A stretch of 64,000 nucleotides of DNA from a virus. Lineage: Duplodnaviria > Caudoviricetes. A program made the position numbers and the translations under genes. Positions 56,262 to 59,722 of this stretch are shown one piece after another. Positions within the stretch are counted from its first letter, which is position 1, and each line of letters starts with the position of its first letter. The stretch is from IMG/VR virus record IMGVR_UViG_3300037067_007801, positions 1-64,000 of that record; one strand, 5' to 3'. A model generated the notes under the pieces. That model was given only the letters and a program-made list of their open reading frames with translations. It searched no databases and had not been told where the DNA came from.

Positions 56262-56585
56262 ATGGCGATGGTACCAGGCAGCATCACGATCGACCCGGGA
56301 ACGGGTGCCGACAGCGGGACTGGTTGCTCCTACGAGTTGTTTCAAGACTTCAACGCGAAGGTCGATTACGGAACAGCGACCGGTACGACGTTGGCCATTG
56401 CCAAGCAGCAGGTCGCCGACCTGTGCGAGAGCATCGGACAAGTCATTGTCACGCACATCGGTGTCAACGCCAAGGCCAAGGTCACGGCGACCGACGCCGG
56501 TCTCCAGTTGCTACCCGCGGCACCGATGGCTGAGGATGACGAGTGCAAGGCGCCGGCCGCTACCAAGTACCTGGGCATCGAGTGA
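56262..56585 (+). CDS. Hypothetical baseplate-region protein
   Basis: GGAGG RBS. Confidence 0.55.
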   Translation: MAMVPGSITIDPGTGADSGTGCSYELFQDFNAKVDYGTATGTTLAIAKQQVADLCESIGQVIVTHIGVNAKAKVTATDAGLQLLPAAPMAEDDECKAPAATKYLGIE

Positions 56586-56588
56586 GCC

Positions 56589-56894
56589 ATGACGTACTGT
56601 GCCTTCCCACCGATACCGATCCCTGCGTTCGCGCTCCCTGCGATTCCGCTTCCCGCACTTCCGAGCTTCGTCATCCCGACGTTGCCAAATCTGCCAGGGC
56701 TCCCGATGATAGCGATCCCGGCGTTCACTTTGCCAGCGATACCGATCCCGGGGCTGCCGAGTTTTTCCATCCCATCATGGTCAAGCCTGCCGGGTTTGCC
56801 GATGATTCCGATCCCGGCGTTCGCTCTGCCTGCCATCCCCTTCCCGGCACTCCCTAGTTTTACGATCCCGTCTCTGTTTTGCGTTCTGGACTAG
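56589..56894 (+). CDS. Pro/hydrophobic repeat protein (three 32-aa repeats)
   Basis: IPAF.LPAIP.P.LPSF units at 56619, 56715, 56811; synonymous divergence supports coding. Confidence 0.6.
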   Translation: MTYCAFPPIPIPAFALPAIPLPALPSFVIPTLPNLPGLPMIAIPAFTLPAIPIPGLPSFSIPSWSSLPGLPMIPIPAFALPAIPFPALPSFTIPSLFCVLD

Positions 56895-56951
56895 AAACGA
56901 TACAGAAAAAACAGGTCAGTTTCCCCACCTACAAACCCTAAACTTTATCAC

Positions 56952-56980
56952 TTGACACCATCAACCAAAGGGTTTATATA
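56952..56980 (+). promoter_or_regulatory. sigma70 promoter with operator-like spacer driving the RAMP-array cassette
   Basis: TTGACA-cca-TCAACC-aaag-GGTTTA-TATA; degenerate second site CAAACC-ctaa-ACTTTA at 56932-56947. Confidence 0.75.
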
Positions 56981-57012
56981 CCTCTCATGGTCATCTAACA
57001 GGAGGGTACGAA

Positions 57013-57678
57013 GTGGCACACAGAACGAAGAGGGTAACACTCACCGGGTTGACTCCGCTCATCATGCACAAGGACGGGATGGACTTCGAGGGTCGCATCA
57101 AGTCGTGGCGCATGAACCCGGCGAACAAAGACTTGCAGGTCAAGGGCGACGACCGTTCCCCCGCGTGGACGTGGATTGGCAGCGTCTACCACGACGGGAA
57201 GATGGTCGGCATCCCGAGCGACAACATCATGACGGTGTTGCGAGAGGGCGGAACGAAGGTCCCGACCGGCAAGCGACAGGGGACGTTCAAGCGCCAGTCG
57301 CAGACGGGAATCATCGTCATGGAACCGCTATGGCTGTTGACGACGGCGGAAGGAAACCAAGTCGAAATCGCCGACATCAACGTCATGCTCGACGAGACCG
57401 ATTTCGACAAGCAGGTGGAGGCGGCGCGCAAACTCAACATCTCCCTGTTCGTCAAGCGCGCAAAGTTGGCGACCTCGAAGAACGTTCGCGTGCGTCCCAT
57501 GTTCGCAGCCGGGTGGAATATCAGCGGGACGGTCAGCATCACGGACAACAGCATCACGGACAGCGTGTTCTCGGACATCCTCATGATGGCCGGGGACCTG
57601 AGCGGCCTGTGCGACTGGCGTCCGAGTTCTCCGAAATCGCCGGGACCTTACGGAAGGTTCACGGCGGAGGTGAAGTAG
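57013..57678 (+). CDS. Solitary RAMP/Cas7-like protein
   Basis: VTLTGLTPLIMH, GIPSDNIMTVLREG, RVRPMF..W, Gly-rich AGDLSGLCDWRP...GPYGRF C-terminus; AGGAGG RBS. Confidence 0.7.
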   Translation: MAHRTKRVTLTGLTPLIMHKDGMDFEGRIKSWRMNPANKDLQVKGDDRSPAWTWIGSVYHDGKMVGIPSDNIMTVLREGGTKVPTGKRQGTFKRQSQTGIIVMEPLWLLTTAEGNQVEIADINVMLDETDFDKQVEAARKLNISLFVKRAKLATSKNVRVRPMFAAGWNISGTVSITDNSITDSVFSDILMMAGDLSGLCDWRPSSPKSPGPYGRFTAEVK

Positions 57679-57684
57679 ACACGC

Positions 57685-58369
57685 GGTTCTCGGCGCGGCC
57701 AGGCACGGCGAGCCGGGGTGTGGCACGGTCCGGCAAGGCAAGGAGCGTGGTCCGGATGGGCATGGCACGGCGAGTCGAGGCACGGCGAGGCACGGTTCCT
57801 GGCAAGGCAGGGCGAGGCCGGGCGCGGTCCGGCAAGGTGAGGATCATGGACGGCAGGGCATGGCGGGTCCAGGTGCGGCGAAGCAGGGCCGGGCGTGGCA
57901 AGGATCGTGACACGGCGCGGTGCGGTGAGGTTGTGCGTGGCAAGGCGAGGTTCCAGGTAGGTCTGGGCCAGGTGCGGCGTGGCTGTGCTAGGCGAGGGTT
58001 AAGGCATGGCAGTGCGCGGCAGGGTCGGGCATGACACGGTGTGGCAAGATTTGGATAGGTTGGGAATGGCAAGGTTGGGTAGGGCGAGGCAAGGAACTGG
58101 GTGTGGCGCGGTGTGGCATGGTCGGGTCCGGTACGGAGCGGCCTGGCAAGGCGAGGATCGTGGCGTGTCAGGGTTAGGTAGGGCACGGTGTGGTGAGGCG
58201 AGGAACGCGGTGCGGCGGGATCAGGTTAGGCATGGTGTGGCCTGGCGCGGCGAGGAACGGGGTGAGGCATGGTTCGGTGCGGCACGGCAGGGCGGGGAAA
58301 GGCGAGGATCCCGGCAAGGTGGGGTGAGGCGTGGTCAGGCAAGGCAAGGTGTGGCGCGGCAAGGAACAT
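57685..58369 (+). ncRNA. GGY-NN pentamer array in 12 units; candidate guide-RNA array
   Basis: Strict 5-nt phase, about 100 of about 119 pentamers begin GGC/GGT; 13 heptamer linkers mostly GGWWC-NN; starts 6 nt after the RAMP-like stop. RNA status is inferred, the repeat itself is certain. Confidence 0.75.
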
Positions 58370-58393
58370 GGTACAATTTCTAAGGAGGAAAAC

Positions 58394-58849
58394 GTGAGCA
58401 AGTCGAAAATGTACTTCGGTGGTGTTCCGACGGAGCCGGATGTTCGGCGACTGTTGGACAGATATGGGCGTCCGCAGCAAGGCCAGGTGATGGCCTACGA
58501 CGAGGTGGCAACCGTCGTCGGGATTCGGCGCGAAGACTCTCGGTTCAAGACCGTGACAAATGCTTGGCGCAAGGCCATCTATTCGAGCTACAACATCGTC
58601 ATCGGCACGCGACCGGGGGTTGGATTCGTCGCCCTACAGGAACCGGAGAGACTGGACTACGGCTCGCGGAAGTTTCGGTGTGGAATTCGCCAGATCAAGA
58701 GATCGCACGGCGTGATCTCCGGGTGTGACGAAATGAAACTCACTCCGGAACAACGCGGCCACAAGCAGCACGACGAGATGGTTTCGGCTCACTTGATATT
58801 GGCCGGGCGTCTGGAAGCCAGACGCTTGCAGTCATCGAGTGGAAAGTAG
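58394..58849 (+). CDS. Unknown protein closing the RAMP-array cassette
   Basis: TAAGGAGG RBS, GTG start 24 nt after the array; basic 151 aa. Confidence 0.7.
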   Translation: MSKSKMYFGGVPTEPDVRRLLDRYGRPQQGQVMAYDEVATVVGIRREDSRFKTVTNAWRKAIYSSYNIVIGTRPGVGFVALQEPERLDYGSRKFRCGIRQIKRSHGVISGCDEMKLTPEQRGHKQHDEMVSAHLILAGRLEARRLQSSSGK

Positions 58850-58858
58850 AGGGACCCA

Positions 58859-59722
58859 ATGGACTGGTTCAAACTCCCGATTCTCATCCTCATCCTAGGC
58901 CTCCCCACGTGCTCCCCAATCGATTTCCAGGCCGGACCCCTCCCACCCATACAAGACGGTGGTTCAGACGACTCCACGGACTCCCAAACCGACACCATTG
59001 AGGATTCCGGGACCGACGGTGACAGCGATTCGGACACGGACGTGGACAGCGACACGGACACGGGGCCGGATACTGGCACCGAGACTGACACCGAGAGTGA
59101 AACTGGAAGCGACACGGACACCGACGTCGACACAGACACAGACACAGACACAGACACGGACTCGGATACCGATACCGATACCGATACCGAGATCCCGGAC
59201 CCGTGCACTGGTCCAGGCACATGGCTCGACGATGGTTGGTGGTTCGACTTCCTCCCGGACTATCCGGGCGGCGATATGACGTACCTTGGCACCCGTTGTT
59301 GGCAGGACCCGCCGGCTCCGGAACTCATGGAGTGGACCGCGGCCGTGGACTACTGCGCTGACCTCGTGCTCGCCGGGTACGACGACTGGATCCTGCCCGA
59401 CGTCAACCAGCTCCGTTGGCTCGGGCGGCCGACCACATGGGAGTGTGCCGACTGCGGGCTGATTGCTCCTGACCATCTGGCCGAGTCGGACATCGAAGAC
59501 TGCGAGGCGTGCCTGCCGTTGTTCGGTGGGGCTGGTGCTGGAGGATGTTACTGGGATCCTGCACTGGGCGGAACATGCTCCTACTACTGGAGTTCTTCGG
59601 AGCAGTCCGGGTATCCACTTAACCGAGTATGGGGCTGGTCGTTCGCCGGAAATGACCCCGGACTCGTCGCGTCCAACAAGACCGGATCGCTTGGCTACAC
59701 TCGCTGCGTGAGGTCGCTGTGA
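58859..59722 (+). CDS. Lipoprotein with Asp-Thr repeat linker and DUF1566-like domain
   Basis: Hydrophobic leader plus Cys; DTDTDT tract about 58980-59210; WQDPP...MEWTAAVDYC...GYDDWILPDVNQL...YWSSS. Confidence 0.75.
   Translation: MDWFKLPILILILGLPTCSPIDFQAGPLPPIQDGGSDDSTDSQTDTIEDSGTDGDSDSDTDVDSDTDTGPDTGTETDTESETGSDTDTDVDTDTDTDTDTDSDTDTDTDTEIPDPCTGPGTWLDDGWWFDFLPDYPGGDMTYLGTRCWQDPPAPELMEWTAAVDYCADLVLAGYDDWILPDVNQLRWLGRPTTWECADCGLIAPDHLAESDIEDCEACLPLFGGAGAGGCYWDPALGGTCSYYWSSSEQSGYPLNRVWGWSFAGNDPGLVASNKTGSLGYTRCVRSL

What the first reader, a model, noticed from the sequence alone, without database searches (positions are those of the whole stretch)
57685..58369. GGY-NN pentamer array in 12 units: candidate non-contiguous guide-RNA code
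Seen: from 6 nt after the RAMP-like stop the sequence runs in strict 5-nt phase. Positions 1-3 are constant (GGC/GGT in about 100 of about 119 pentamers, manual parse) and positions 4-5 are free, with all 16 dinucleotides used. The phase is reset by 7-nt linkers at 57685, 57742, 57794, 57841, 57902, 57949, 57996, 58093, 58155, 58202, 58254, 58306 and 58363 (mostly GGWWC-NN, usually preceded by GGCAA/GGCGA). This gives 12 units of 8-11 pentamers (one double-length unit of 18; one unit has a 1-nt deletion). No two units share an NN string, e.g. 58100-58154 GT GC GT AT CG CC AC GC CT AA GA; 58261-58305 GA AT TC GC AC AG GG AA GA; 58313-58362 AA GG GA GT CA AA AA GT GC AA. Satellite decay would not hold three positions fixed while randomising two. 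Inference: each unit is a processed RNA in which GGY is a protein-bound scaffold and the NNs (16-22 nt per unit, guide-sized information) specify a target. If one target base is skipped per pentamer, the guide could ignore codon wobble positions. I recall a recently reported phage system (VIPR) with a RAMP-related protein and GGY/NN RNAs; I cannot verify that here. I could not find a target by eye.
Basis: partly seen in the sequence, partly recalled or inferred. Interest (0 to 1): 0.97.

Follow-up and report, generated by a model that had tools for sequence, protein, structure and literature searches.

The report
VIPR guide-RNA array in a phage
The GGY-NN pentamer tract is a real VIPR guide-RNA array of about 12 guides, sitting next to its Vipr (Cas7-like) protein and an accessory gene inside a phage tail operon; this system was described in 2026 preprints, so this is a new, unusually long member of a known kind, not a new kind.

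Summary
Window 57685-58369 has strict 5-nt periodicity, 92 of 108 in-frame pentamers are GGY-NN, and all 13 reported 7-nt junctions are present. No such run occurs anywhere else in the 87.6-kb viral contig.

The upstream 221-aa ORF is a true homologue of the characterised SUSP1 Vipr protein (hhalign 99.2%; profile hit to PDB 36pp, E 1.6e-17). It has a Cas7/Csm3-like fold and keeps the GGY-contacting residues. The downstream 151-aa gene is a conserved partner (vap-like, winged-helix-like).

Most of the 78 related loci fetched carry same-strand GGY-NN arrays next to vipr. GGY positions hold 1.5-2 bits and NN positions 0-0.2 bits. A sister phage (Vipr 94% identical) shares no guide with this array.

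It differs from the characterised type II loci. It has no structured 3' tails. Units abut through a conserved GGC-RA/GG-WW-C/RN junction that shifts the register by 2 nt. The gene order is vipr-array-vap.

No target was found for the window's guides: seven exact scans of IMG/VR and one of metagenomes gave chance-level hits. One sister-phage guide matches a window gene at 20 of 22 bases with the skipped base at wobble; this is suggestive only.

The parts
56952..56980 (+). Sigma-70-like promoter candidate (TTGACA, 17 nt, TATATA), 61 nt upstream of the vipr start
   Evidence: My own scan finds it at the same offset (-61) in the window and in the sister phage L001, although the flanks are only about 77% identical. 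The stricter tool scan did not list it because the -10 hexamer ends in A. It is not general across the clade (9 of 47 loci have any such site).
57013..57678 (+). vipr: 221-aa Vipr protein, a minimal RAMP related to Cas7
   Evidence: phrog_4652, E 9e-15; the SUSP1 Vipr falls in the same PHROG, E 1.4e-96. The A1 profile hits PDB 36pp_D 'SUSP1 Vipr protein', E 1.6e-17. hhalign against SUSP1 Vipr gives probability 99.2%, E 7.7e-20, over 184 columns. The AF2 model has pLDDT 90.8. VIA-align gives Z 9.7 to Csm3 and Foldseek E 3e-6 to type VII Cas7. H19, R161, D201, W202 and R203 are invariant or nearly so and align to the SUSP1 GGY-contact residues H17, R138, D177, W178 and R179.
57685..58369 (+). 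vrRNA array: 12 units (13 if the double unit is split), each 8-11 GGY-NN pentamers, bounded by 13 seven-nt junctions (GGWWC-NN)
   Evidence: The same grammar is found in related loci.
58394..58849 (+). vap-like accessory gene (151 aa), with the ribosome-binding site TAAGGAGG directly after the last junction
   Evidence: tblastn finds a homologue beside vipr, on the same strand, in 59 of the 78 loci then held. The AF2 model has pLDDT 91.4, with an N-terminal helix-strand-helix-helix-strand-strand domain plus a long helical hairpin. It gives weak winged-helix matches: PurR N-terminal domain Z 7.8, and OmpR/PhoB-type domains with Foldseek probability 0.8-1.0 at E 0.02-0.1. hhalign against SUSP1 vap1 gives probability 62%, E 7e-5, over 103 columns. 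There is no Pfam or PHROG hit.

Best explanation
This is a VIPR (Viral Interference Programmable Repeat) cassette carried as an insert in the baseplate operon of a tailed phage, in the order promoter, vipr, vrRNA array, vap.

Inferred from the characterised SUSP1 and P. fulva systems: the array is transcribed with vipr. One Vipr protomer binds per pentamer. G1 and G2 are held by one protomer and Y3 by the next, which leaves N4 and N5 exposed. Each filament reads double-stranded DNA as NN-x-NN-x, skipping one target base per pentamer. Binding forms an R-loop triplex that blocks transcription of a competing phage, satellite or prophage. The winged-helix-like Vap assists.

Specific to this locus, and my inference: the units have no structured 3' tail. 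They are delimited by the junction GGC-RA / GG-WW-C / RN. This junction reads as a normal GG|C-NN pentamer with two extra A/T bases inserted exactly where two protomers share a GGY. It shifts the register by 2 nt, so a filament cannot run across it. It also leaves a short unprotected linker where the transcript is presumably cut into 47-62-nt guides.
For: - Shown here: Vipr homology and fold and conservation of the GGY-contact residues (against the residues listed in the paper read).
- The array is exclusive to this site and strand.
- Most of the 78 related loci have same-strand arrays beside vipr, with only 2 weak minus-strand calls.
- Information content is 1.5-2 bits at GGY and 0-0.2 bits at NN, over 123 unit ends from 28 loci.
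- Gaps between in-phase runs are 7 nt in 160 of 198 short junctions.
- Guide content is completely different in a sister phage with 94% identical Vipr and about 92% identical Vap.
- A conserved vap partner is present.
- The context is viral: tape measure, baseplate hub and baseplate J genes, and the record is a virus record.
- NN usage over 2641 dinucleotides correlates with codon positions 1-2 (r 0.58; the other five frame and orientation comparisons run from -0.37 to 0.06), and TA is depleted 0.64-fold.
- A sister-phage guide matches window gene 56262-56585 at 20 of 22 bases under the 1-nt skip rule only, wobble-aligned.
- The mechanism itself comes from the papers.
Against: - There are no expression or processing data for this locus.
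- No target was found for any window guide. Exact 1-nt-skip scans of seven guides in IMG/VR gave one chance-like hit. One guide in the metagenomes gave 18 hits, about the number I estimated from chance alone, and none extends.
- Nothing was found in the phage's own contig, in 579 kb of related loci, or in about 30 kb of the sister phage.
- 31 of 136 pentamers have a degenerate scaffold, so some units may be decaying.
- The junction-as-filament-stop idea is untested. Two of the 13 junctions have a pyrimidine at position 3 (GGTTC), so the stop cannot rest on purine exclusion alone.
Confidence: 0.9

Rival explanations
1. The array is a decaying or non-functional relic, or a decoy that titrates another phage's Vipr, and not a working set of guides for this phage.
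For: 23% of pentamers have imperfect GGY. One unit has a 1-nt deletion, and unit 7 looks like two units fused by loss of the 2-nt shift. No target was found. Decoy vrRNAs are described for satellites in the paper read.
Against: An intact vipr with all GGY-contact residues sits 6 nt upstream. Several units (3, 8, 12) are perfect or nearly so. The discovery paper says internal degeneracy is frequent in vrRNAs. Missing targets are expected for a poorly sampled host.
Confidence: 0.06
2. The tract is translated as part of a glycine-, alanine- or arginine-rich repeat protein. Open frames exist at 58006-58383 (+), 56952-58034 (+) and 57659-58186 (-).
For: Long open frames cross the tract.
Against: The periodicity is 5, not 3. 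Unit lengths of 5n+7 change the reading frame from unit to unit. The sister phage has an array of different length and content between flanking genes that are 92-94% identical at protein level. The two open frames tested, 58006-58383 (+) and 57659-58186 (-), have no Pfam hit. A G-rich tract with 31% A+T is expected to lack stop codons by chance.
Confidence: 0.01
3. The tract acts as a DNA element, for example a G-quadruplex-prone tract or a recombination or replication signal, or is a plain satellite unrelated to Vipr.
For: GG runs at 5-nt spacing and GC skew of +0.45 could form two-tetrad quadruplexes.
Against: A satellite would not keep three positions at 1.5-2 bits and two at about 0 bits across 63 loci from many phyla. 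The arrays are always co-oriented with, and adjacent to, a protein whose homologue is shown by cryo-EM to read GGY in RNA.
Confidence: 0.02

Closest known systems
Type II VIPR of Escherichia phage SUSP1 (and the P. fulva prophage); bioRxiv 10.64898/2026.04.26.720920 and 10.64898/2026.04.26.720927
   Same: The Vipr protein is homologous (hhalign 99.2%, same PHROG 4652), with the same GGY-contact residues. The pentamer code is GGY-NN on the vipr strand. A small partner gene of 146-151 aa is present, with weak similarity to vap1. The system is carried by a phage.
   Different: In SUSP1 each vrRNA has its own leader and a roughly 60-nt structured tail, reported as a pseudoknot, and the order is vrRNA1-vipr-vap1-vrRNA2-4. 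Here 12 units abut through 7-nt junctions with no tail, there is no Rfam match, and the array lies between vipr and vap. Vipr identity is only about 22%.
'Staggered' vrRNA arrays (fig. S18 of 10.64898/2026.04.26.720920)
   Same: The legend describes arrays in which the end of one processed vrRNA marks the start of the next, with a 1-nt overlap. That is contiguous guides without spacers, which fits the junction grammar here.
   Different: Only the legend is available to me. I could not check whether the published staggered arrays use the GGC-RA/GGAAC/RN junction, or which VIPR type they belong to.
Class 1 CRISPR backbone (Cas7/Csm3 filaments on crRNA)
   Same: The protein has the RAMP fold (Z 9.7 to Csm3). 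One protomer binds per fixed RNA step, and a thumb displaces bases at regular intervals.
   Different: The step is 5 nt with three bases sequestered, against 6 nt with one base flipped. There are no CRISPR repeats, no cas operon and no adaptation genes. Guides are unchanged across 10 contigs from 10 different samples or sequencing runs in the sister phage lineage.

Membership tests
VIPR system | Vipr protein homologous to the characterised Vipr family | tested here: met
   Profile A1 against PDB 36pp_D 'SUSP1 Vipr protein', E 1.6e-17. hhalign probability 99.2%, E 7.7e-20. Both proteins fall in phrog_4652.
VIPR system | Minimal RAMP fold: single RRM core, thumb hairpin, glycine-rich loop | tested here: met
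   AF2 pLDDT 90.8. Top structural matches are Csm3, Cmr4 and Cas7 (Z 9.7-7.8; Foldseek E 3e-6). There is a beta hairpin at 144-164 carrying R159 and R161. The C-terminal loop has invariant G194, G198, G211 and G214.
VIPR system | Residues that read G1, G2 and Y3 of the repeat (SUSP1 H17, R138, D177, W178, R179) | tested here: met
   They align to H19, R161, D201, W202 and R203. R161, D201, W202 and R203 are invariant and H19 is at least 90% conserved in 36 homologues.
VIPR system | At least 4 tandem YNNGG/GGYNN units next to vipr, on the same strand | tested here: met
   136 pentamers, 105 perfect, starting 6 nt after the vipr stop. None occurs elsewhere in the contig.
VIPR system | GGY conserved and NN hypervariable among related arrays | tested here: met
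   1.5-2 bits against 0-0.2 bits. No guide is shared with the sister phage.
VIPR system | Accessory vap gene in the cassette | tested here: met
   A homologue lies beside vipr in 59 of 78 loci. The fold is winged-helix-like. Similarity to SUSP1 vap1 is only weak (probability 62%).
VIPR system | Array transcribed and processed into vrRNAs that co-purify with Vipr | not testable with these tools
   No RNA data. There is only a conserved promoter-like site at 56952-56980 and no terminator between vipr and vap.
VIPR system | Natural targets that match under the 1-nt skip rule | tested here: inconclusive
   No target for the window's guides. Indirect support comes from NN usage resembling codon positions 1-2, and from a sister-phage guide matching the window at 20 of 22 bases under skip 1 only (0 of 1500 pairwise shuffles reach this, but one 20 of 22 appears in the all-against-all shuffles).
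VIPR type II (SUSP1-like) | Each vrRNA capped by a conserved structured 3' tail (pseudoknot) | tested here: not met
   Units are separated by 7 nt only. There is no Rfam match. SUSP1 tails of about 60 nt are visible in L080. The locus should therefore not be filed as type II on array architecture. The type could not be assigned, because the paper's classification tables are not held.

The most novel reading that the evidence does not exclude
The 7-nt junction (GGC-RA / GG-WW-C / RN) may be a self-contained punctuation mark. Two extra A/T bases are inserted at the point where two Vipr protomers share one GGY. This would end one filament, start the next in a new register, and expose a cleavage site. 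It would allow long multi-guide arrays without tails, ribozymes or a dedicated processing nuclease. If the published 'staggered arrays' are not this, or their punctuation has not been worked out, this would be a new processing grammar. It is used by about half of the 78 related loci fetched here.
Probability: 0.3. Interest if true: 0.55.

Novelty: new member of a known kind. Interest (0 to 1): 0.35.

Why it matters
VIPR is a very recent discovery: an RNA-guided DNA-silencing system with a gapped code, proposed to predate CRISPR. This locus adds nothing categorically new.

It is, however, a clean natural example of a long, tail-less array of 12-13 guides, with a simple and conserved punctuation that generalises to dozens of environmental phages. 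That punctuation is of practical interest for multiplexed programmable repression, since many guides could come from one short transcript. It also bears on how filament length is set.

The locus also shows that ordinary repeat finders miss such arrays, and that sister phages swap their entire guide content while keeping the proteins.

Tried and rejected
- Self-targeting: searches with skip 0-3 on both strands, against shuffled NN order, gave nothing above control in the phage's own 87.6-kb contig, in 579 kb of related loci, or in about 30 kb of the sister phage.
- IMG/VR: exact scans with 1-nt-skip patterns for units 8, 12, 1, 4, 11, 10 and 7a gave one hit in total (L079). It does not extend, and its skipped base falls at codon position 1.
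- Metagenomes: a scan for unit 12 gave 18 hits, roughly the number I estimated for 18 specified bases. None extends 5', and 3 extend 3', which is near the roughly one expected by chance.
- All-against-all: about 300 clade guide chains against all loci showed only a slight excess for skip 1. There were 45 seed hits with at least 17 of 22 matches, against 30-35 for the other skip rules and 23 for the shuffled skip-1 control.
- Host inference from the neighbouring DUF1566 protein gave no usable taxon. Relatives cannot be drawn for a virus record, so host prophages could not be scanned.
- Rfam: no hit, including no hammerhead ribozyme.
- Pfam: no hit for vipr, vap, or the two open frames tested across the array.
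- VIPR type: could not be assigned, because the paper's supplementary tables are not held.

Full report
**1. Observation**

Reading 56800-58700 shows that the tract begins 6 nt after the stop of ORF 57013-57678 and is built of GGY-NN pentamers. The same-base match rate at lag 5 is 0.51 and stays high at multiples of 5. The flanking CDS gives 0.22 at lag 5 and shows the usual period 3. A dynamic-programming parse recovers 136 pentamers, 105 of them perfect.

Junction spacings are 5n+7, except for one unit with a 1-nt deletion and one double-length unit. In the 11 in-frame units 92 of 108 pentamers are GGY, and all 16 NN dinucleotides occur. Runs of at least 4 in-phase GGY exist nowhere else in the 87.6-kb contig, on either strand. 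Tandem Repeats Finder does not report the array.

**2. What it is**

VIPR consists of a Vipr protein plus vrRNAs of alternating GGY/NN. It reads double-stranded DNA with one skipped base per pentamer and silences competing mobile elements. The structural basis is one protomer per repeat. G1 and G2 are read by H17, D177, R138 and W178 of one protomer, and Y3 by the next protomer.

The 221-aa protein of the window has the following properties:
- It hits phrog_4652, the PHROG that also contains SUSP1 Vipr.
- A profile of 36 homologues hits PDB 36pp 'SUSP1 Vipr protein' at E 1.6e-17.
- hhalign against the SUSP1 gene product gives 99.2% probability over 184 columns.
- The AF2 model (pLDDT 90.8) matches Csm3, Cmr4 and Cas7 backbones best (Z up to 9.7).
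- H19, R161, D201, W202 and R203 align to the SUSP1 GGY-reading residues and are invariant or nearly so.

The family is large: 1270 hits in the 90%-clustered collection and 507 representatives at 50% identity.

**3. Context**

The cassette lies between baseplate-hub genes and a baseplate-J gene, downstream of the tape measure gene, and the record is a virus record.

A TTGACA-17-TATATA site lies at 56952-56980. It is kept at the same offset in the sister phage.

The 151-aa gene that follows the array (58394-58849) has a homologue beside vipr in 59 of 78 related loci. It folds confidently into a winged-helix-like domain plus a helical hairpin. It is weakly similar to SUSP1 vap1. I read it as the vap of this system.

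**4. Comparative evidence**

I first fetched 78 related loci. Most of them carry GGY-NN arrays on the vipr strand, directly upstream or downstream of vipr or of vap. Only two weak calls fall on the opposite strand.

Over 123 unit ends from 28 non-redundant loci, GGY positions carry 1.5-2 bits and NN positions 0-0.2 bits. Only the last NN before the junction is semi-conserved (RA), and the first base after GGAAC is a purine in 89% of cases. Short gaps between in-phase runs are 7 nt in 160 of 198 cases. Most of the rest are 12 or 2 nt, which is the same junction plus or minus one pentamer call.

About half of the loci use this junction grammar. Others in the same protein family separate their guides by 24-70 nt, as SUSP1 does with its tails.

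The sister phage (Vipr 94% and Vap about 92% identical) has a shorter array with no guide in common with the window. Its own array is identical in 10 contigs from 10 different samples or sequencing runs. Guides are therefore stable within a lineage and wholly different between lineages.

**5. Mechanism**

The general mechanism is taken from the SUSP1 and P. fulva work and is inferred for this locus: filament on GGY, NN-x-NN-x reading of DNA, R-loop triplex, transcriptional block.

The part specific to this locus is my inference. The junction GG-WW-C-NN reads as a GG|C-NN pentamer with two A/T bases inserted at the seam where two protomers share a GGY. The upstream register reads it as GGA-AC, with a purine where the SUSP1 pocket excludes purines. 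The downstream register reads it as AAC-NN. The two registers overlap by three bases.

This would end one filament and start the next, and it would leave a short unprotected linker for cleavage. It fits the published description of 'staggered' arrays, whose vrRNA ends coincide. The array also starts with such a junction at 57685.

Unit 7 has an in-phase GATTT where a junction would be expected. It looks like two units fused by loss of the 2-nt shift.

**6. Targets**

None of the window's guides has a convincing target. All local and collection searches, listed under Tried and rejected, gave chance-level results.

Two indirect observations favour coding-sequence targets read with the skipped base at wobble:
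- NN usage over 2641 dinucleotides from 63 loci correlates with codon positions 1-2 of the sense strand (r 0.58). The other five frame and orientation comparisons give r from -0.37 to 0.06. TA is depleted 0.64-fold.
- A guide of the sister phage (L001:6967-7021) matches window 56346-56377, inside gene 56262-56585, at 20 of 22 NN bases under skip 1. Other skip rules give 17-18. The skipped bases fall at wobble, and the sister phage's own allele matches at only 11 of 22 by my hand count on the alignment.

For the second observation, none of 1500 NN-order shuffles of that array reaches 20 against this contig. However, an all-against-all shuffle produced one 20 of 22 match. I therefore treat it as a lead, not a finding.

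**7. Rivals**

Translation is excluded by the 5-nt period, the frame-changing unit lengths and the unit-level differences between sister phages. A DNA-level or satellite role does not explain the strand-locked association with a GGY-reading protein or the asymmetry in conservation. A decaying or decoy array cannot be excluded for individual units, since 23% of scaffolds are degenerate.

**8. Verdict**

The system has been public since April 2026 (four preprints), so the finding is a new member of a known kind.

Its points of interest are:
- the length of the array;
- the tail-less 7-nt punctuation shared by many environmental phages;
- the vipr-array-vap gene order;
- its position as an insert in a baseplate operon;
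- the possible cross-targeting between sister phages.

Noticed in passing
window 56346-56377 (+), in gene 56262-56585; guide at L001:6967-7021: [quoted passage not shown] The sister phage's own allele matches at only 11 of 22. None of 1500 pairwise shuffles reaches 20, but the match is not significant after all-against-all correction.
   Followed up: partly
related loci L001-L078 (e.g. L011:5137-5834, L015:3850-4348 against L044:4685-5038, L041:3341-3982): The same Vipr family uses two array architectures. In one, contiguous units are joined by GGC-RA/GGAAC/RN 7-nt junctions (about half of the loci). In the other, units are separated by 24-70-nt spacers or tails.
   Followed up: partly
63 related loci, 2641 NN dinucleotides: NN usage resembles codon positions 1-2 of the sense strand (r 0.58; the other five frame and orientation comparisons give r from -0.37 to 0.06). 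TA is depleted, and C is rare at the first N (14%). This may reflect coding targets or an RNA constraint.
   Followed up: partly
window 57400-58700: Tandem Repeats Finder reports only two 10-nt fragments of the 685-nt array. With 40% of positions free, the array falls below the detection threshold of ordinary repeat finders.
   Followed up: yes
window 56589-56894 (+) and L001:5583-5885: Just upstream of the cassette lies a C-rich, proline- and leucine-rich repetitive ORF of about 100 aa, with GC skew about -0.24. It has no Pfam or PHROG hit. It is present but divergent in the sister phage.
   Followed up: no
window 58859-59722 (+): A DUF1566/Lcl C-terminal domain protein (Pfam E 6e-9) directly follows vap. 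Its homologues are mostly in uncultured Proteobacteria MAGs. It seems to be a second inserted gene in the baseplate operon.
   Followed up: partly
L099-L107, L003: The sister phage's 420-nt array region is identical, base for base, in 10 contigs from 10 different samples or sequencing runs. There is no sign of ongoing guide acquisition within a lineage.
   Followed up: yes
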